12,528 bases of DNA from a virus (lineage: Duplodnaviria; Heunggongvirae; Uroviricota; Caudoviricetes). A model generated the notes under the pieces. That model worked only from the letters and a program-made list of their open reading frames with translations, made no database searches and was not told where the DNA came from. The stretch lies in the IMG/VR virus record IMGVR_UViG_3300029068_000019. The stretch is one strand, 5' to 3'. Within the stretch, counting starts at the first letter, position 1, and each line of letters opens with the position of its first letter. Made by a program: the position numbers and the translations under genes. This document shows, one piece after another, positions 1 to 7,852 of the stretch.

Positions 1-115
1 TGTGGCGGCCTCAGTCCGGAACAATTTGAAAACCAGAACCTCGCTTAGGCCTGTGTCCATATTACGTGGGTAGGATCAGGTCGCTGTCTTCACAGCTTAC
101 GAACCTGAGGAGTAA
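1..115 (+). pseudogene. hok-family (HokD/RelF-like) toxin gene, 3' terminal remnant
   Basis: Frame 2 ends ...VAVFTAYEPEE then TAA at 113-115, matching the HokD/Gef C-terminus as I remember it. The same frame has an in-frame TAG at 71-73 and the upstream translation does not look like a Hok transmembrane segment, so only the last ~13 codons are recognisable. 5' end is cut by the window edge. Confidence 0.4.
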
Positions 116-183
116 GAGACCCGGCGAGGGAGAAATCCCTCGCCACCTCTGATGTGGCAGGCATCCTCAACGCACTCGCACTT

Positions 184-210
184 AACCCGCTTCGGCGGGT
201 TTTTGTTTTT
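184..210 (+). terminator. Rho-independent terminator downstream of the hok remnant
   Basis: 7-bp GC-rich stem AACCCGC/GCGGGTT around a TTCG tetraloop, followed by TTTTGTTTTT. A second stable 8-bp hairpin lies at 123-144 (GGCGAGGG/CCCTCGCC), typical of structured hok mRNA 3' ends. Confidence 0.7.
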
Positions 211-223
211 ATTTTCAACGCGT

Positions 224-253
224 TTGAAGTTCTGGACGGTGCCGGAATAGAAT
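224..253 (+). promoter_or_regulatory. Candidate sigma70 promoter for rem
   Basis: -35 TTGAAG (224-229), 18-bp spacer, -10 TAGAAT (248-253), about 80 nt upstream of the rem ATG. Hexamer match only. Confidence 0.3.
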
Positions 254-331
254 CAAAAATACTTAAGTAGCGCGCAGGGATAAGAGGGATGGTCCCTTAA
301 AGGGGAGAGCTAATTATCCGGAAGGATTCTG

Positions 332-583
332 ATGATGAACATCGAAGAACTGCGTAAAAATTTTTGTGAAGATGGCCTCTATGCTGTGTGCGTTGAAAAT
401 GGAAATCTTGTTAGTCATTACCGCATTATGTGTTTGCGAAAGAATGGGGCTGCGTTAATTAATTTTGTGGATGGTCGAGTGACAGACGGATTTATCTTGC
501 GCGAAGGTGAGTTTGTCACTTCATTACAGGCACTGAAAGAGATCGGAATAAAAGCAGGCTTTTCAGCTTTTGCAGAAGAATAA
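332..583 (+). CDS. rem: Rem-like small prophage protein (83 aa, function unknown)
   Basis: 83-aa ORF with tandem ATG ATG start and GGAAGGA Shine-Dalgarno 6 nt upstream. Length, MMNIEELRK N-terminus and position between hok and the ydfU-like gene match rem of the Qin prophage as I recall it. Confidence 0.75.
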   Translation: MMNIEELRKNFCEDGLYAVCVENGNLVSHYRIMCLRKNGAALINFVDGRVTDGFILREGEFVTSLQALKEIGIKAGFSAFAEE

Positions 584-649
584 ACTCATCTACAATCTTG
601 CGCGGGGCTGAACTCCCGCTGAGTAACACCGTGCCACCGGAGAAAACCG

Positions 650-928
650 ATGGCACGCAACGTAAAATATTACAATTCTGATAATTCGCCCGTTCTTGTC
701 TGCACGCACGAGCGGTATTCTCACGCATTCAAGTCTGAATGGTTCCAACACCCTCCATGCACTGAAGAGCAGGCTGAATGGATAATTCAGTGTTACCGCA
801 GGCGCGGATACGAGGTTAAGAAAGCCCTTAGTCTCGACTACCGTCACTGGATAATCTCAGTCAGATTGCCTTACTCCGAACGCCCACCGCGTCCGTCCCG
901 TACATTCCAGCAACGCATCTGGAGGTAA
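650..928 (+). CDS. Hypothetical small prophage protein (92 aa), translationally coupled to the downstream DUF968 gene
   Basis: ATG preceded by GGAGAAAA. The stop TAA at 926-928 lies inside the GGAGGTAA ribosome-binding site of the next gene, whose GTG is at 930. No family recognised. Confidence 0.5.
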   Translation: MARNVKYYNSDNSPVLVCTHERYSHAFKSEWFQHPPCTEEQAEWIIQCYRRRGYEVKKALSLDYRHWIISVRLPYSERPPRPSRTFQQRIWR

Positions 929-929
929 C

Positions 930-1979
930 GTGCGGGTATTACTTCGACCTGTTCTGGTACCGGAACTTGGGCTGGTGGTCGTTAAGCCGGGCCGTGAATC
1001 CATGCCGGTATTCCACAATACCCGGGTACTGGTGGAGCCGGAACCGAAAAGCATGCGTAATCTGCCGTCCGGGGTCGTTCCTGCCGTTCGCCAGCCGCTG
1101 GTGGAAGACAAAACATTGCTGCCGTTTTTCAGTAACGCACGGGTAATTCGTGCTGCTGGTGGTGCTGGTGCATTGTCTGACTGGCTGTTGCGCCATATTA
1201 AATCCTGCCAGTGGCCACACGGCGATTATCATCACAGCGAAACCGTTATTCACCGATATGGTACCGGCGCAATGGTGTTGTGCTGGCACTGCGACAACCA
1301 GCTGCGTGACCAGACATCCGAATCACTCGAGCAACTTGCTCATCAAAACCTGTCAGCATGGATGATTGACGTCATCGGTCACGCAATAAGCGGTACGCAG
1401 GAGCGTGAATTATCTCTGGCTGAATTATCCTGGTGGGCGGTCCGCAATCAGCTGGCGGACGCGCTACCGGAAGCGGTATTACGTCGCTCGCTGGGATTAC
1501 CAGCGGAAAAAATCTGCTCGGTGTACCGCGAAAGCGACATCGTACCGGGAGAGCAGACCGCCACCAGCATATTGAAACAGCGCACAAAAAATCTTGCACC
1601 GTTGCCTCACGCCCACCAGCAACAAAACCCATCACAGGAAAAGACGGTGGTAAGCATCACCGTTGATCCAGAGTCTCCGGAATCTTTCATGAAGCTGCCT
1701 AAACGTCACCGGTGGGTTAAGGAGAAATACACACGCTGGGTTAAGACACAGCCGTGTGCTTGCTGCGGTATGCCAGCCGACGATCCGCATCATCTGATTG
1801 GTCACGGGCAGGGCGGAATGGGAACCAAAGCACATGATCTCTTTGTTTTGCCTTTGTGCAGAAAGCATCACGACGAGTTGCATACGGATACCGTGGCATT
1901 TGAAGAGAAGTATGGCTCCCAACTGGAGCTGATTTTTCGATTTATCGATCGCGCGCTGGCAATTGGTGTGCTGGCCTAA
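930..1979 (+). CDS. ydfU: DUF968 / YdfU-like prophage protein with C-terminal HNH-like zinc-finger nuclease motif
   Basis: 349-aa ORF, GTG start with GGAGGT Shine-Dalgarno. C-terminus carries CACCG...HHLIGHG...C..HH.ELH, a Cys/His arrangement like the NinG/Rap-type HNH fold. Length and position upstream of Q match ydfU of Qin. Confidence 0.8.
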
Positions 1980-1996
1980 TTTTGTGGAGTAAGTTG

Positions 1997-2374
1997 ATGC
2001 GTGATATTCAGATGGTTCTTGAGCGTTGGGGGGCATGGGCGGCTAATAATCATGAAGATGTGACCTGGTCGTCCATTGCCGCCGGTTTTAAGGGATTAAT
2101 TCCTTCAAAAGTAAGATCTCGTCCGTAATGCTGTGACGATGACGCGATGATCATTTGTGAATGTATGGCTCGCCTGAAAAAAAACAACAGCGATTTACAT
2201 GATTTATTGGTGGACTATTATGTCGGCGGCATGACTTTTATGGCGCTTGCACGTAAGCATGGGCGATCTGATTGTTGGGTTGGCAGGATGCTCCAGAAAG
2301 CTGAGGGCGTAGTGGAGGGCATGCTGATGGTGTTGGATCTCCGATTGGAGATGGATGCTGATTGTTCGAAATAA
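1997..2374 (+). pseudogene. Late antiterminator Q (short QuuD-like family) interrupted by in-frame TAA at 2126-2128
   Basis: ATG 1997 with GGAG 7 nt upstream gives [43 protein letters not shown], then TAA, then in the same frame [18 protein letters not shown]...LEMDADCSK to the stop at 2372-2374. Joined length is 125 codons, the size of short prophage Q proteins, and sits immediately upstream of a promoter/terminator pair. A single C-to-T change in a CAA (Gln) codon would create this stop. Confidence 0.6.
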
Positions 2375-2386
2375 TTAAAGGAAAAG

Positions 2387-2415
2387 TTGCTGTCTGATTT
2401 TCATTAGTCTAACAT
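2387..2415 (+). promoter_or_regulatory. Candidate late promoter (pR'-like) directly after Q
   Basis: -35 TTGCTG (2387-2392), 17-bp spacer, -10 TAACAT (2410-2415). Position mirrors lambda pR'. Hexamers are imperfect. Confidence 0.3.
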
Positions 2416-2472
2416 TTTAAATGTTGGAATCGCAACGTAGTTATTATCATATAACAGCTTATTTCCTGATTT

Positions 2473-2501
2473 AGCCAGCCTCCCCAAAGGCTGGTTTTTT
2501 T
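2473..2501 (+). terminator. Rho-independent terminator (tR'-like) about 60-80 nt downstream of the candidate late promoter
   Basis: 7-bp stem CCAGCCT/AGGCTGG (2475-2481 with 2488-2494), CCCCAA loop, then a seven-T run at 2495-2501. Together with the promoter this resembles the lambda pR'-tR' short-transcript unit on which Q acts. Confidence 0.75.
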
Positions 2502-2529
2502 CTAATAAGTATCATTTCGGGTGGGGATT

Positions 2530-3054
2530 TTATTGTTTAACCCATAATAGTTCATTGACATTGAATCCCAACTTTTGAGCGGTACGCACATAGTCTGCTT
2601 TTACATTATCTGGAATAGTTTGGGTCCTTGCCAGAATCCATAGGTATTCTCTGTTCGGACCACTGACAAGAGCATACTTATACTCATCATCCAGTTTGAT
2701 TACATTATAGCCACCATAGAAGGGGCCAAAAAACGAAACTTTCAACGCTGCAGTTTTAGTATCTCCAGTAAAGTATGCTTTACCTTCGCTCTCGCTCCAT
2801 TTGTTTTTCGTTGGATCGTATCCACGGTTAAGTACGCGAATCCCTCCGTCGTTCCGTTTTTCATAAGTAGCGCTGACCTGTTCCAGACCACGTTCGAACC
2901 AGTTCTCGAGGCGAGCTATTTCATACCATTTTCCGAGGTAGCGGTTGGCGTCAAAATTTGTAATCGGCTGCACACCTTTAGGTGGTGTCGGGGCCTTACA
3001 TGCTATAAGAGTGAAAGAGAGTGCAATGCCAGTCAACACAGGCCATAACTTCAT
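2530..3054 (-). CDS. Blc-like bacterial lipocalin, predicted outer-membrane lipoprotein
   Basis: 174 aa. Signal peptide with lipobox LIAC (Cys19). Motifs NFDANRYLGKWYEIAR, KAYFTG, LKVSFFGPFYGGYNVI and YLWILART match E. coli Blc almost residue for residue in the conserved regions. AGGA Shine-Dalgarno 6 nt upstream on the - strand. Confidence 0.85.
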   Translation of the reverse strand: MKLWPVLTGIALSFTLIACKAPTPPKGVQPITNFDANRYLGKWYEIARLENWFERGLEQVSATYEKRNDGGIRVLNRGYDPTKNKWSESEGKAYFTGDTKTAALKVSFFGPFYGGYNVIKLDDEYKYALVSGPNREYLWILARTQTIPDNVKADYVRTAQKLGFNVNELLWVKQ

Positions 3055-3246
3055 AATAAATCCTGTACTTTTGATAGTTGAGAGTAAGTATGAAAGATAG
3101 ATGAGTACGACCGATCACTTAAAGAACTTTCCTACTATATTAGGAATAGTCAATAACAGAAAAATTGTCAGTGATGAAGCCAGAAAGGCAATTTAGTCCG
3201 TGCACTACAAAGTTTATGTGTTAATGAATTAGTCAAGGGGGAGGAA

Positions 3247-4206
3247 ATGATAAAAAAACCTGTGATTGGGATCAGCGGTTGTTTGGGCGGTTCTGCTGTT
3301 CGTTTTGATGGTGGTCACAAAAGAGATGACTTTTTAATGGACAAATTAGTGGAATGGGTAACATTCAGACCAGTATGTCCGGAAATGGCTATAGGGCTGC
3401 CAGTTCCGCGTCCTGCTCTACGACTTGTGCGCTCGAAGCAAGGAAATATACGGATGTGTTTCAGCCACGACCAGAATGAGGATGTGACAGAGAGAATGAC
3501 AGAGTTTAGTCGTTCTTATATGGACAAATTAAAGGATGTATCGGGGTTTGTGGTTTGTGCTAAATCTCCCAGCTGTGGCATGGAGCGCGTGCGTGTCTAT
3601 GATGAAAATGGTAATCGAGGTCGTAAAGATGGAGTGGGACTATTTACGAGCACTTTGATGGAAAAGTTTTCCTGGCTACCGGTTGAAGAGGATGGGCGAT
3701 TACATGATCCAGTGCTTCGTGAGAATTTTATTGAAAGAGTTTTTGCTTTGCATGAGCTCAATCACCTTTACAAGGAGAAATTATCAAGAAGAGAGTTATT
3801 AGCTTTTCATAGTCGTTATAAGCTTCAGTTGTTGGCGCATAGCCAGGCAGGCTATAAAGATATGGGACCATTTGTGGCTGCAATACACGAGTGGGCGGAC
3901 CTTGAATCATACTTTGAGGTGTATCGTGATAATCTGATGGCGATTCTCAGAAAACCAGCATCACGTAAAAATCACACGAATGTGCTGATGCATATACAAG
4001 GGTATTTTAGTAATTACTTAAGTACACGCCAGCGTAAAGAGTTGAGCGAGGTTATACTTAACTATCGCTTTGGCACATTGCCTCTTCTTGCGCCGTTGAC
4101 TCTGCTGAAGCATTATCTGGGTGAGTATCCTAATGATTACTTGCTTACACAGAACTACTTCGATCCCTATCCGGAAGAACTGGCTCTAAGACTGATGGTG
4201 AATTAA
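3247..4206 (+). CDS. DUF523 (TudS-like thiouracil desulfidase fold) fused to DUF1722 (YbgA-like)
   Basis: 319 aa with GGGGGAGG Shine-Dalgarno. N-terminus MIKKPVIGISGCLGGSAVRFDGGHK is the DUF523 signature. Cys12, Cys44 and Cys104 sit where the three [4Fe-4S] ligands of TudS-type enzymes are reported, from memory. The C-terminal ~160 aa is YbgA/DUF1722-like. Confidence 0.8.
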   Translation: MIKKPVIGISGCLGGSAVRFDGGHKRDDFLMDKLVEWVTFRPVCPEMAIGLPVPRPALRLVRSKQGNIRMCFSHDQNEDVTERMTEFSRSYMDKLKDVSGFVVCAKSPSCGMERVRVYDENGNRGRKDGVGLFTSTLMEKFSWLPVEEDGRLHDPVLRENFIERVFALHELNHLYKEKLSRRELLAFHSRYKLQLLAHSQAGYKDMGPFVAAIHEWADLESYFEVYRDNLMAILRKPASRKNHTNVLMHIQGYFSNYLSTRQRKELSEVILNYRFGTLPLLAPLTLLKHYLGEYPNDYLLTQNYFDPYPEELALRLMVN

Positions 4207-4612
4207 CTGTATGCGATATCATCTGAAAGTGATGAGTTCCTGTATGCAGGATATTTACAATCGTAAAAACTACGCTATGATGCTCATAGTGTCAGTTTTT
4301 ATAAAAATCCTGTTCACGCTAAAGAAGACATTGAGATGCAATTTAATGTTGGTAAACATACCAGCCCCAAAAGATTTTATTCAATCTGTTTTTATATGAA
4401 GATATTTCAAGTGAATATTAAGAGCATATAATATTATTATTGCACGCAGCTATTATAATATAACAGATTAGTTTAATGATTTGTTTTTTGTGAGTTAAAC
4501 ACATGGTTTTATAGTTGTGATGCAATGAGATTTTCCTTATTGTTGAACTGGCGAATATTGATTTTCCACCTATACTTACCTGGTGTAACCCCAATGATAT
4601 CAGGTGGATAAT

Positions 4613-5326
4613 ATGCCATACATATGTTCTATCATTTTGGTGTTGAACTCGTTTGGTGTCCGAATTGGTAAAGAAGATATTTTGTTTAAAAAAGGAAATG
4701 CTGTCCTCATTGAATACAATTTAAAAGATCTTTTTTCGTCAAATACAGATCATCTAATGATCGTAGATGTTGAGGAGAAAACAGTTAATGATTTCTTTAA
4801 AAACTACACACTCTCACCTTTTTCTGTAAGAAGGTTTTATCCGTCATACTTGATAGTAGAATGTGAAGATTTTTCATTGTTAAAGAACTTGGTTGCATGC
4901 TTGAATTGTGATAGCAAAACCGTGGATGTAGTTAGAAATCAAATATCACTTGCATGTCTTGCTGTCTTATCTTCAGAGAAAATAGTGCAAAGTTTTTTGT
5001 TCGGAAGTCTTAATAGCTTAGGTTGTAAAGTTAAGGCTATTATTCACTCGGATATCTCTGCGTCATGGAGACTTTGTGATATATCTTCAAGATTATATAT
5101 GAGCGAGAGTTTGTTAAAAAGAAAATTAAAAGACGAAGGATTATCGTTTAGTAAATTAATTCTTGAAGAACGAATGATGATGGCGCAAAGATTATTGATC
5201 TACAGTAACCATACTGTCGGCAAGGTGGCGGGAATATGCGGGTATGACAATGCATCATATTTTGTAAGTGTTTTTAGAGGATATTTTGGTGTGCCTCCGC
5301 ACCAATATTTATCAAGATTTTCTTAG
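4613..5326 (+). CDS. AraC/XylS-family transcriptional regulator (AppY/GadX/PatE-like)
   Basis: 237 aa from ATG 4613 (AGGTGG Shine-Dalgarno 5 nt upstream; the ORF track starts at GTG 4604). The C-terminal ~100 aa carries the two AraC helix-turn-helix units (...LLKRKLKDEGLSFSKLILEERMMMAQRLL...GYDNASYFVSVFRGYFGVPPHQY). Gene and its upstream region are strongly AT-rich. Confidence 0.8.
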   Translation: MPYICSIILVLNSFGVRIGKEDILFKKGNAVLIEYNLKDLFSSNTDHLMIVDVEEKTVNDFFKNYTLSPFSVRRFYPSYLIVECEDFSLLKNLVACLNCDSKTVDVVRNQISLACLAVLSSEKIVQSFLFGSLNSLGCKVKAIIHSDISASWRLCDISSRLYMSESLLKRKLKDEGLSFSKLILEERMMMAQRLLIYSNHTVGKVAGICGYDNASYFVSVFRGYFGVPPHQYLSRFS

Positions 5327-5394
5327 AAGATATGATGTGATGGCATTTTATAAAGTTATTTTTTGAAGTGTAAGATTATACGATATTTTTAGCT

Positions 5395-5426
5395 ACGCCA
5401 GAATAATTGCTGGCGTTTTTCTTTTT
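5395..5426 (+). terminator. Rho-independent terminator after the AraC-family gene
   Basis: 7-bp stem ACGCCAG/CTGGCGT, 8-nt loop, then TTTTTCTTTTT. Confidence 0.65.
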
Positions 5427-5516
5427 GAATAGATGTTCGGGCCTTACGCTAATGTAACTTCTTTCCTTCTTCGAACCAAACCGTGTACACCATCCGTTAT
5501 CTGCGGAGGTGAGGCT

Positions 5517-5732
5517 ATGAAATCCATGGATAAGTTAACAACGGGCATCGCCTACAGCACCTCTGCAGGCAGTGCTGGCTACTGGTTTTTACAGTTGCTC
5601 GATAAAGTCACGCCCTCACAGTGGGCGGCAATAGGTGTATTGGGTAGTCTGGTATTTGGCATGCTGACGTATCTGACAAATCTTTATTTCAAGATTAAAG
5701 AAGACAGGCGTAAGGCTGCGAGAGGAGAGTAA
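5517..5732 (+). CDS. Class II holin, phage 21 S-like pinholin with dual-start motif
   Basis: 71 aa beginning [24 protein letters not shown], i.e. Met1-Lys-Ser-Met4 dual start as in S21. Two transmembrane segments and a charged C-terminus ([13 protein letters not shown]). GGAGGTGAGG Shine-Dalgarno upstream. The track's extension back to 5433 has no ribosome-binding site and is discounted. Confidence 0.85.
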
Positions 5733-7072: not shown

Positions 7073-7323
7073 ATTAATATTAAATCGGATTATTTTTAGC
7101 GCTGAATGTGAAATTTAAATAAAAAGGACTCTTCCATGAGTCAAAATCCTTGAAATCTTAAGGGTAAGATAAAAGGTCATTAGACAGAATGACACGTTTT
7201 ATTAATAAATAAAGCTATTGTTTCATTCGTGTGTTTTTCTTTACAAAAGTAATCCTTGCTATGGTTGGTTAATCATGCGTTAATGGTGTTCTGGTTTGTT
7301 ACAAAATTATCTGAAGCAGTCAT

Positions 7324-7332
7324 TGTTATAAT
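7324..7332 (+). promoter_or_regulatory. Candidate extended -10 promoter (TGtTATAAT) for the cold-shock gene, implying a ~100-nt leader
   Basis: Perfect TATAAT at 7327-7332 with TG at 7324-7325, inside a long AT-rich untranslated region. No convincing -35. Confidence 0.3.
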
Positions 7333-7432
7333 TTTATTATTTGTACCTCTTGAGATTTCCTTGTTGGTTTTTCTCTCTGATATTTTTTTTCGGACCATTC
7401 TGCCCAAGGGCTAACTTCTTCAAAAGGTAATA

Positions 7433-7648
7433 ATGATGTCTAACAAAATGACTGGTTTAGTGAAATGGTTTAACCCTGAAAAAGGTTTTGGTTTCATCAC
7501 GCCGAAAGATGGTAGCAAAGATGTGTTTGTGCATTTCTCAGCTATTCAGAGCAACGATTTCAAAACGTTAACTGAGAATCAGGAAGTCGAATTTGGTATT
7601 GAGAACGGACCTAAAGGCCCTGCAGCTGTTCATGTAGTGGCACTTTGA
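7433..7648 (+). CDS. CspA-family cold-shock protein (CspB/CspI-like)
   Basis: [24 protein letters not shown]...VFVHFSAIQ carries the RNP1/RNP2 motifs. The true start may be the second ATG at 7436 (MSNKMTG...). AAGG Shine-Dalgarno upstream. Confidence 0.9.
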
Positions 7649-7852
7649 GGTAGAAAATATTACAAACCATATTCACTTTAGATGCCCGTGTTGCCATGGT
7701 TCTCAGTATAGAACATCATCTTTTGATGTTTCTGACAGAAATCCTTTCGGGGCAAAATGTATCTTTTGTAAATCAATGATGATTACATTTGATAATATTT
7801 CACAATACTTAAATGTTAGCCATCTGTCGTTAGATTTAAGAAAGTGAAAATG

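What the first reader, a model, noticed from the sequence alone, without database searches (positions are those of the whole stretch)
4400..5326. AraC-family regulator with strongly AT-rich upstream region, reminiscent of prophage-encoded acid-resistance regulators
The gene and the ~200 bp upstream are markedly AT-rich with many TATA-like tracts, the look of an H-NS-silenced, horizontally acquired regulator. Its size and domain layout resemble AppY/EnvY/GadX-type regulators. EHEC prophages are known to encode AraC-like regulators (e.g. PatE) that reprogram host acid resistance. This one may regulate host genes or its cargo neighbours.
Basis: partly seen in the sequence, partly recalled or inferred. 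Interest (0 to 1): 0.5.

Follow-up and report, generated by a model that had tools for sequence, protein, structure and literature searches.

The report
Prophage AraC regulator, sister of PatE
This is an intact, AT-rich gene for an AraC-type transcription factor carried as a self-contained "extra" gene between the late-gene switch and the lysis genes of a lambda-like E. coli prophage; its nearest studied relative is PatE, a prophage regulator that switches on host acid resistance, so it is an uncharacterised member of a known kind, not a new kind of system.

Summary
Window 4613-5326 (+) encodes a 237-aa AraC/XylS protein. The gene (33.5% GC) and its upstream region (29.6% GC) form the lowest-GC stretch of the window.

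The protein is 48% identical over its full length to PatE of O157:H7 (65% in the DNA-binding domain). It forms a 100%-bootstrap sister clade to PatE, inside a group with the probable PsrB, GadW, AppY, YdeO and AdiY. All the characterised members of that group are acid-resistance regulators.

The gene looks like a classic moron:
- It sits between the Q antiterminator and the holin in eight further loci, including three sequenced phages, next to several Q types.
- A -10 box, a Shine-Dalgarno site and an intrinsic terminator are conserved around it.
- dN/dS is 0.21-0.27, so it is under purifying selection.

In this lineage it travels with a Blc lipocalin gene and a RudS tRNA 4-thiouridine desulfidase gene (92% identical to the tested RudS_vir). 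More distant alleles occur without these two genes, which argues against a dedicated local regulator.

About 16% of complete E. coli genomes carry the gene. Targets, H-NS silencing and any acid phenotype remain untested. I rate it a new member of a known kind, of modest interest.

The parts
4613..5326 (+). CDS of the 237-aa AraC/XylS-family regulator. The N-terminal regulatory domain is about residues 1-130 and the two-HTH DNA-binding domain is about residues 136-235.
   Evidence: ORF. Pfam HTH_18 and HTH_AraC. RefSeq WP_001146314.1. AlphaFold model with pLDDT 88.6. dN/dS 0.21-0.27. K169 aligns with AppY K170, a residue needed for DNA binding (PMC10057817).
4602..4608 (+). Shine-Dalgarno AGGTGGA, 4 nt upstream of the ATG.
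   Evidence: ATCAGGTGG.T.ATATG is invariant or nearly so in six loci whose upstream sequence is otherwise diverged.
4548..4576 (+). Candidate core promoter P2: -35-like CTGGCG (4548-4553), 17-nt spacer, -10 TATACT (4571-4576). The predicted transcription start is near 4583.
   Evidence: TATACTT is invariant in all six aligned loci. The aligned -35 is TTGGCA (P0016 locus) or TTGGTA (P0013 locus) at 17-18 nt spacing. This is an inference; no transcription start data exist.
4488..4515 (+). Alternative promoter-like site P1 (TTGTGA, 16 nt, TATAGT).
   Evidence: Consensus scan. It is conserved only among the close alleles. The scan found no more sites than the shuffles did.
4207..4612 (+). AT-rich non-coding region upstream of the regulator gene (31% GC). 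It is a candidate H-NS or regulator-binding region.
   Evidence: Composition. The small ORFs in it are not conserved.
5395..5426 (+). Intrinsic terminator (ACGCCAG, loop, CTGGCG, then a T-run). It closes the regulator's transcription unit and insulates the holin gene.
   Evidence: Terminator scan. Fold energy -11.3 kcal/mol, z-score -2.9. Stem and T-run are conserved in six loci, including the 50%-identity allele.
3247..4206 (+). Upstream cargo gene: RudS-type desulfidase (TudS domain plus DUF1722), annotated 'YbgA family'.
   Evidence: Pfam PF04463 and PF08349. It is 91.8% identical to phage 1H12 gp66 (RudS_vir), with Cys12, Cys44 and Cys110 kept. RudS_vir lowers tRNA s4U when expressed (PMC11417400).
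2530..3054 (-). Cargo gene: outer-membrane lipocalin Blc homologue, divergent from rudS.
   Evidence: Pfam Lipocalin_2, E 7.5e-43. NCBIfam Blc subfamily, 312.6 bits against a cut-off of 267.
1997..2374 (+). Q antiterminator gene. It marks the upstream edge of the moron slot. Here it carries an in-frame stop at codon 44.
2473..2503 (+). tR'-like intrinsic terminator just downstream of Q.
   Evidence: Terminator scan. Fold energy -14.9 kcal/mol, z-score -3.9.
5517..5732 (+). Holin gene (essD-like). It marks the downstream edge of the moron slot.
   Evidence: Pfam Phage_holin_2_1. RefSeq essD. Conserved GGAGG Shine-Dalgarno plus ATG.
4444..4473 (+). Second copy of a 30-nt direct repeat. The first copy is at 2435-2464, between Q and tR'.
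   Evidence: 25 of 30 matches. This exceeds all 60 Markov-1 simulations, whose maximum was 23. Its function is unknown.

Best explanation
**Shown.** The gene encodes an intact AraC/XylS-family transcription factor under purifying selection. It belongs to a prophage-borne clade that is sister to PatE. That clade sits inside the GadW/AppY/YdeO/AdiY group of enterobacterial acid-resistance regulators. The gene is a moron in the slot between the Q antiterminator and the holin of lambdoid phages, the same slot that stx occupies in Stx phages. It has a conserved Shine-Dalgarno site, a conserved -10 box and its own conserved intrinsic terminator.

**Inferred.**
- In the lysogen it is transcribed from its own weak promoter (-10 at 4571-4576) within an AT-rich region. 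That region is probably repressed by H-NS and relieved in stationary phase or under stress, as reported for appY and patE.
- The terminator stops read-through into the lysis genes.
- After induction, Q-modified RNA polymerase would also read through the gene. In this particular window that cannot happen, because Q has a nonsense codon.
- The protein binds AT-rich sites through its two HTH motifs. Recognition helix 1, SESLLKRKLK, is identical to PatE's. It acts mainly on host promoters, most probably those of the GAD/hdeAB acid-fitness island that PatE, PsrB and AppY activate, and so changes the stress physiology of the lysogen.
- Its N-terminal domain diverges faster (34% identity to PatE, dN/dS 0.3-0.5) and probably sets the input signal or oligomerisation.
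For: **Family and domain.**

**Full-length identity.** PatE 48%, probable PsrB 37%, GadW 33%, AppY 30%, YdeO 29%; Salmonella AdiY about 32%.

**Tree.** The neighbour-joining tree gives 100% bootstrap for the window clade plus the PatE clade, and 96% with the probable PsrB added.

**DNA-binding domain.** It is 65% identical to PatE, and the 10-residue core SESLLKRKLK of recognition helix 3 is identical (11 of 13 over residues 163-175). K169 aligns with AppY K170, where K170E abolishes DNA binding (PMC10057817).

**Functions of relatives.** PatE and PsrB activate gadE and hdeAB and raise acid resistance (PMC10877973). AppY binds the gadE and gadY promoters (PMC10057817).

**Moron anatomy.**
- The Q-to-holin position recurs in L001, L006, L007, L008, L018, L019, L020 and L021, next to three different Q families.
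- The Shine-Dalgarno site and TATACT are conserved.
- The terminator is conserved.

**Selection.** dN/dS is 0.21-0.27 overall and 0.12-0.14 in the DNA-binding domain.

**Independence from neighbours.** The 50-60% alleles sit alone in the slot without blc or rudS.

**Frequency.** The CDS is present in 922 of 5426 complete E. coli genomes, and 886 of them carry at least 80% of it.
Against: No experiment addresses this protein: a search for its accession found no paper, and neither did the two context searches.

At 48% identity to PatE, with only 34% in the N-terminal domain, the targets need not be the same. Helix 6 matches PatE at only 9 of 15 positions.

Its constant linkage with blc and rudS in about 880 genomes leaves room for a local role.

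The promoter assignment rests on conservation alone. The consensus scan found no more promoter-like sites than the shuffles did.

The H-NS high-affinity motif is not enriched.
Confidence: 0.55

Rival explanations
1. The protein is a dedicated local regulator of its cargo neighbours. It would switch on the divergent blc and rudS genes (lipocalin and tRNA s4U desulfidase), so that the three genes form one stress module.
For: The three genes are inherited together: 883 of 5426 genomes carry at least 80% of 2400-5430. The same order is seen in phages 1H12 and IdasGreatGrand and in several prophages. AraC-family genes commonly sit next to their targets.
Against: The 60% and 50% alleles (P0013, P0016) occupy the same Q-to-holin slot with no blc or rudS. 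PatE-type relatives lie elsewhere in the phage, without these genes. Synonymous divergence shows that araC has a different history from blc and rudS: dS between the window and strain LSC52 is 0.31 for araC and 0.055 for the other two. No sequence motif is shared between the blc-rudS intergenic region and the araC upstream region.
Confidence: 0.15
2. The protein is a phage-directed regulator. It would tune the phage's own late or lysis gene expression or its induction, which would explain why it always lies immediately upstream of the holin gene.
For: Its position directly upstream of the holin is fixed across phages with different Q, lysis and terminase modules. A 30-nt sequence from the Q-proximal PR'/tR' region is repeated upstream of the gene.
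Against: The Q-to-S interval is the standard moron insertion site, so position alone is weak evidence. The closest clade (PatE, phage ev099) sits between the tail-fibre and integrase genes instead. A conserved terminator separates the gene from the holin. All characterised relatives act on host regulons. Many lambdoid phages lyse without any such gene.
Confidence: 0.08
3. The gene is a decaying, non-functional remnant of a defective prophage, with AT-richness reflecting mutational drift.
For: The prophage in this window has a nonsense codon in Q. Related prophages carry IS elements and truncations.
Against: The ORF is intact in nearly all carriers (886 of 922). dN/dS is 0.21-0.27, and 0.12-0.14 in the DNA-binding domain. 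The gene is present in sequenced phages deposited as complete genomes. DNA-binding residues are conserved. The model is confidently folded.
Confidence: 0.03

Closest known systems
PatE (Z0321 / ECs_0287; prophage CP-933H/Sp1 of E. coli O157:H7)
   Same: It is a prophage-encoded AraC-like protein of about 240 aa. It is alignable end to end at 48% identity (65% in the DNA-binding domain, with recognition helix 1 identical). It forms a sister clade with 100% bootstrap. PatE activates gadE, gadBC and hdeAB and raises acid resistance (PMC10877973).
   Different: The two are not orthologues: they form separate clades and the N-terminal domains are only 34% identical. PatE-type genes lie between the tail-fibre and integrase genes (Sp1, phage ev099), whereas this gene lies between Q and the holin. 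The targets of this protein are untested.
PsrB (and PsrA), prophage-encoded secretion regulators of O157:H7
   Same: The probable PsrB (EDL933_RS10010, 237 aa, in CP-933O/OI-57) occupies the same antiterminator-to-lysis slot. It joins the PatE-plus-window clade with 96% bootstrap. PsrB binds the hdeA and gadE promoters (PMC10877973).
   Different: Identity is only 37%. In EDL933 it is accompanied by tRNA genes and a PerC/Pch regulator, not by blc and rudS. I assigned EDL933_RS10010 to PsrB from its position and family, not from a locus-tag table.
AppY (DLP12 prophage, E. coli K-12)
   Same: It is a prophage-borne AraC-family regulator with the same two-domain layout, and the DNA-binding lysine is conserved (AppY K170 aligns with K169 here). 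AppY directly activates gadE and gadY, and its own expression depends on H-NS and RpoS (PMC10057817).
   Different: Identity is 30%. AppY groups with GadW (94% bootstrap), not with this clade. It lies at the prophage end next to ompT.
GadW / GadX / YdeO / AdiY (chromosomal acid-resistance AraC regulators)
   Same: All are full-length homologues at 29-33% identity (GadX is 41% over the DNA-binding domain). The GadX DNA-binding-domain crystal structure 3MKL superposes at TM 0.85-0.88.
   Different: These are core-genome genes embedded in their regulons. None passes an NCBIfam equivalog cut-off with this protein; the best is YdeO at 112 bits against a cut-off of 348.
Rns / CsvR / ToxT (virulence AraC regulators with a fatty-acid-binding N-terminal domain)
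   Same: These are the best full-length structural matches (Foldseek E 3e-11 to 5e-7; sequence E 1e-18 to 1e-11).
   Different: Identity is only 17-20% and TM is only 0.41-0.45 with large rmsd. The N-terminal domain here is shorter (about 130 aa). I did not test for a ligand pocket.

Membership tests
[quoted passage not shown] | C-terminal domain of about 100 aa with two helix-turn-helix motifs (Pfam HTH_18 / HTH_AraC above the gathering score) | tested here: met
   HTH_18 scores 59.9 bits against a cut-off of 33.6. HTH_AraC scores 42.7 bits against 26.6. The model has helices 154-160, 165-174, 179-197, 202-208 and 214-225. The GadX, MarA and AraC DNA-binding-domain structures match.
GadW/AppY/YdeO/PatE subgroup (enterobacterial acid-resistance AraC regulators) | Homology over the whole length, including the short N-terminal domain that begins M..(V/I)CS(V/I)I | tested here: met
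   BLASTP alignments cover residues 1 to about 235 for PatE, GadW, AppY and YdeO. The group has 100% bootstrap with GadX, AdiY and EnvY branching outside it (tree rooted on EnvY).
GadW/AppY/YdeO/PatE subgroup (enterobacterial acid-resistance AraC regulators) | Activates GAD / hdeAB acid-fitness genes and raises acid survival | not testable with these tools
   This needs expression, ChIP or EMSA, and acid-challenge experiments.
PatE orthologue | Same clade as Z0321/ECs_0287, with high identity and the same genomic slot | tested here: not met
   Identity is 48%. The protein falls in a separate clade: PatE, ev099 gp29, P0016 and P0023 form their own 100% clade. PatE alleles are 97-98% identical to each other. 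PatE itself (Sp1) and its ev099 homologue occupy a different slot, although P0016 of that clade sits in the Q-to-holin slot.
Lambdoid-phage moron | An extra gene, not needed for the phage cycle, inserted between conserved modules and absent from related phages | tested here: met
   The gene lies between Q and the holin. Prophages Sp6 and Sp8 of strain Sakai carry other genes or none in this slot. Its GC is 0.335 against 0.50-0.54 for the backbone.
Lambdoid-phage moron | Own promoter and own terminator flanking the gene | tested here: inconclusive
   The terminator is well supported. The promoter is inferred from a conserved TATACT and an aligned -35, and no transcript data exist.
H-NS-silenced xenogeneic gene | AT content well above that of the host genome | tested here: met
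   GC is 0.30-0.34 against 0.50-0.54 for the backbone genes in the window; E. coli averages about 0.51 (general knowledge).
H-NS-silenced xenogeneic gene | H-NS occupancy and derepression in an hns mutant | not testable with these tools
   The TCGATAAATT motif is not enriched: 13 matches found against 17.9 expected. This neither supports nor excludes H-NS binding.
Rns/ToxT-type fatty-acid-responsive regulators | N-terminal beta-sandwich with a fatty-acid pocket and its contact residues (for example Rns H20 and R75) | tested here: inconclusive
   Foldseek gives probability 1.0 but TM 0.41-0.45. The pocket residues were not aligned.

The most novel reading that the evidence does not exclude
The regulator may be the control element of a three-gene lysogenic-conversion module. 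In response to an envelope or lipid signal, or a near-UV or stationary-phase signal sensed by its fast-evolving N-terminal domain, it would coordinate the phage's Blc lipocalin and RudS tRNA-4-thiouridine eraser with the host acid-fitness island. That would link tRNA de-modification and acid or UVA stress tolerance under one phage-borne switch.
Probability: 0.12. Interest if true: 0.55.

Novelty: new member of a known kind. Interest (0 to 1): 0.32.

Why it matters
Prophage AraC-like regulators (PatE, PsrA/B, AppY) are among the few documented ways in which phages rewire host stress regulons. This clade is as common as those: about one complete E. coli genome in six carries it, across commensal, avian, porcine and clinical strains. 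It has no assigned function; RefSeq calls it a 'helix-turn-helix domain-containing protein' and PHROG 1450 is listed as 'unknown function'.

If it activates the GAD/hdeAB system, it would be a widespread and unrecognised source of strain-to-strain variation in acid tolerance and gut passage.

Its linkage with RudS_vir is also useful. RudS_vir has been shown to lower tRNA s4U when expressed, and the linkage gives that enzyme a candidate natural regulatory context.

Sequenced phages that carry the cassette (1H12, IdasGreatGrand) offer a route to a direct test.

Tried and rejected
- **H-NS motif.** TCGATAAATT with up to 2 mismatches is not enriched, and there is no cluster upstream of the gene.
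- **Rfam, tRNA and defence scans.** Nothing was found in or next to the gene. The only Rfam hit is a cspA thermoregulator at 7278-7694. PADLOC gave no hits for the three cargo proteins.
- **62-aa ORF at 4211-4399.** I rejected it as a gene. It has no family hit. It is frame-shifted, truncated and heavily substituted in close relatives.
- **28-aa upstream ORF at 4525-4611.** It ends 1 nt before the ATG, but it is absent from phage 1H12 and sits in a region otherwise identical among close alleles, so there is no evidence for it.
- **GTG start at 4604.** I rejected it in favour of the ATG at 4613.
- **PsrA.** I looked for it at the position given in reviews (z1789, OI-50). Sakai Sp6, Sp8 and Sp10 and EDL933 CP-933N contain no AraC-type gene by annotation, and tblastn with the PsrB candidate found none in these regions (PatE and window queries were run on the three Sakai regions only). 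Only the OI-57 gene, the probable PsrB, was recovered.
- **Primary papers.** The PatE and PsrB papers (PMC3416394, PMC4288888) are not held, so I used reviews.
- **Salmonella hits.** A possible Salmonella rudS-araC pairing did not hold up. The Salmonella hits are AdiY, between adiA and adiC.
- **Other genera.** The species-representative genome scan found no member of this clade outside E. coli. The one 85% hit is a small contig in a 'Candidatus Nanosynbacter' MAG, presumably E. coli contamination.
- **Promoter scan.** The number of promoter-like sites did not exceed the shuffles.

Full report
**1. What is there**

The window is part of a lambdoid (Qin-like) E. coli prophage. Reading left to right:
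- ydfU (DUF968), 930-1979.
- A 125-codon Q antiterminator gene, 1997-2374.
- A tR'-like terminator, 2473-2496.
- A Blc-type lipocalin gene on the minus strand, 2530-3054.
- A 'YbgA family' gene, 3247-4206.
- The AraC-family gene of the finding, 4613-5326.
- A terminator, 5395-5416.
- The lysis cassette: holin 5517-5732, DUF1327, lysozyme and Rz.
- An AT-rich cold-shock gene region with a cspA thermoregulator.
- The terminase genes.

The finding's ORF is real. Pfam HTH_18 and HTH_AraC pass their gathering scores at residues 158-234. The start is the ATG at 4613: it is preceded by AGGTGGA, and that Shine-Dalgarno-plus-ATG block is invariant even in loci whose protein is only 50-60% identical. 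RefSeq annotates the same 714-bp CDS as WP_001146314.1.

**2. Is the AT-richness real?**

Yes.
- GC is 0.335 for the CDS, 0.296 for 4400-4612 and 0.313 for the whole intergenic region 4207-4612.
- The window as a whole is 0.453, and the phage backbone genes are 0.50-0.54.
- Only 2.5% of 927-bp windows are as GC-poor, and the minimum of the whole window starts at 4251.
- TATA tetramers are about six times the window average in 4400-4612.

The published H-NS high-affinity motif is not enriched. The H-NS idea therefore rests on composition and on precedent: appY expression depends on H-NS (PMC10057817).

**3. What the protein is related to**

Full-length BLASTP identities are:

| Relative | Identity |
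|---|---|
| PatE (Sakai ECs_0287) | 48% |
| Probable PsrB (EDL933_RS10010 in OI-57) | 37% |
| A 265-aa E. coli AraC protein (P0026) | 35% |
| GadW | 33% |
| AppY | 30% |
| YdeO | 29% |
| GadX (DNA-binding domain only) | 41% |

Salmonella AdiY is about 32% identical.

A neighbour-joining tree places the window protein with its 85%, 76% and 60% alleles in one clade. That clade is sister to the PatE clade with 100% bootstrap, and the probable PsrB joins with 96%.

By domain:
- The DNA-binding domain is 65% identical to PatE.
- Recognition helix 1 (SESLLKRKLK) is identical to PatE's.
- Helix 6 matches at 9 of 15 positions.
- The N-terminal domain is only 34% identical.

K169 aligns with AppY K170, whose K170E change abolishes DNA binding (PMC10057817).

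No NCBIfam equivalog cut-off is reached; the best is YdeO at 112 bits against 348. The protein falls in PHROG 1450, listed as 'unknown function'.

An AlphaFold model is confident (pLDDT 88.6). Its best full-length structural matches are CsvR, Rns and ToxT, but at TM only 0.41-0.45. The GadX DNA-binding domain superposes at TM 0.85-0.88.

The literature searches found no paper on this protein.

**4. Anatomy of the unit and its slot**

The gene lies between a Q antiterminator and the holin in every complete locus I examined:
- strain TA8571;
- phage IdasGreatGrand;
- strains 99-3165 and LSC52;
- phage 1H12;
- the loci of the 76%, 60% and 50% alleles.

These loci have three different Q families and different lysis and terminase modules. 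This is the moron slot that stx occupies in Stx phages (PMC8065619).

Downstream, the hairpin ACGCCAG...CTGGCG plus T-run is conserved in six loci, although the flanking sequence has diverged. It folds at -11.3 kcal/mol.

Upstream, TATACT at 4571-4576 is invariant. It aligns with a -35 of TTGGCA or TTGGTA at 17-18 nt in the distant loci, and with CTGGCG here. I read this as the core promoter.

The unit therefore has its own promoter and terminator. In this particular window that matters, because Q has an in-frame stop at codon 44. That allele was seen in none of the 431 complete genomes that carry this Q segment. Late read-through from PR' is therefore unlikely here.

**5. Is the gene functional, and does it belong to its neighbours?**

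dN/dS among four alleles is 0.21-0.27. It is 0.12-0.14 in the DNA-binding domain and 0.31-0.52 in the N-terminal domain. The ORF is at least 80% complete in 886 of 922 carrier genomes.

The upstream neighbour is a RudS enzyme (TudS plus DUF1722). It is 91.8% identical to RudS_vir of phage 1H12, with the three cluster cysteines kept. RudS_vir was shown to lower tRNA 4-thiouridine when expressed (PMC11417400).

blc, rudS and the AraC gene travel together in 883 genomes. Three points argue against a dedicated local regulator:
- The 60% and 50% alleles sit alone in the slot.
- PatE-type genes lie elsewhere in the phage.
- Synonymous divergence shows a recombination breakpoint inside the AraC gene. 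Between the window and LSC52, dS is 0.055 for blc and rudS, 0.10 for the AraC N-terminal half and 0.69 for its DNA-binding half.

The regulator is a separable module.

**6. Mechanism I commit to**

It is a moron-encoded transcription factor, expressed in the lysogen from its own weak promoter in an AT-rich and probably H-NS-repressed region, and insulated from the holin by a terminator. It acts on host promoters. The most likely targets are the gadE / hdeAB acid-fitness genes, which are the targets of PatE, PsrB and AppY (PMC10877973, PMC10057817).

- Shown: family, clade, slot, terminator, conserved -10 and Shine-Dalgarno, purifying selection.
- Inferred: promoter use, H-NS control, targets, phenotype.

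Rivals are a local regulator of blc and rudS (0.15), a phage-directed regulator (0.08) and a dead remnant (0.03).

**7. Distribution and novelty**

The CDS is in 922 of 5426 complete E. coli genomes, always chromosomal. Hosts include poultry, pigs, humans, wildlife and seawater. It occurs in 12 phage records at 77-86% identity. I found no member of the clade in species-representative genomes of other genera; those hits are GadW, AppY, YdeO and AdiY orthologues.

It is a new, uncharacterised member of a known kind, the prophage AraC-like regulators.

Noticed in passing
window 1997-2374 (codon 44, 2126-2128): The Q antiterminator gene has an in-frame stop (…KVRSRP*CCDD…) where strain TA8571 has Gln. 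None of the 431 complete E. coli genomes that carry this Q segment has the window's exact 60-mer; all are 59/60. The nonsense allele is therefore private to the source strain, or it is a sequencing error. If it is real, late-gene antitermination is lost.
   Followed up: partly
window 3247-4206 (+): The 'YbgA family' gene is a full RudS (TudS desulfidase plus DUF1722). It is 91.8% identical to RudS_vir (phage 1H12 gp66) and keeps Cys12, Cys44 and Cys110. RudS_vir lowers tRNA s4U when expressed (PMC11417400). That paper states that E. coli lacks TudS and RudS homologues and has only the stand-alone DUF1722 gene ybgA, yet at least 883 of 5426 complete genomes carry a prophage cassette that includes this rudS gene.
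   Followed up: partly
window 2530-3054 (-): A phage-borne Blc outer-membrane lipocalin passes the NCBIfam Blc subfamily cut-off. It is 96% identical to 1H12 gp65 and is divergently transcribed from rudS. Its role in a phage is unknown.
   Followed up: no
window 2435-2464 and 4444-4473: A 30-nt direct repeat (25 of 30 matches; core AGYTATTATMATATAACAG) has one copy between Q and tR' and the other upstream of the AraC gene. It is better than all 60 Markov-1 simulations. It may be a scar of module insertion or a shared regulatory site. It remains unexplained.
   Followed up: partly
window 4613-5326 versus L008 6001-6732: There is a recombination breakpoint inside the AraC gene. Between the window and strain LSC52, synonymous divergence is 0.10 in the N-terminal half and 0.69 in the DNA-binding half, while blc and rudS differ by only 0.055.
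   Followed up: partly
window 7278-7694 (+): An Rfam cspA thermoregulator hit (110 bits) lies in the second AT-rich block downstream of the lysis cassette. It is the 5'UTR of a cspI-like cold-shock gene carried as further prophage cargo.
   Followed up: no
L017 33275-33988 (EDL933, NZ_CP008957.1 1905274-1905987): The probable PsrB lies directly after a DUF1133 antiterminator and before the tRNA-Ile and tRNA-Arg genes and the lysis genes, with a PerC/Pch gene further downstream. In contrast, no AraC-type gene was found in the CP-933N/Sp6 region where reviews place psrA (z1789).
   Followed up: partly
L024 (JARKOR010000151.1): A 3.2-kb contig assigned to a 'Candidatus Nanosynbacter' MAG encodes an 85%-identical copy of this E. 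coli phage gene. This is almost certainly E. coli or phage contamination of the bin. A second contig of the same MAG (L038) carries a YdeO-like gene.
   Followed up: no
window 4266-4306: A stable hairpin plus T-run lies 60 nt after the rudS stop (-13.3 kcal/mol, z-score -4.8). It would terminate rudS transcripts before the AraC gene. The stem is weaker in the 85% alleles.
   Followed up: partly
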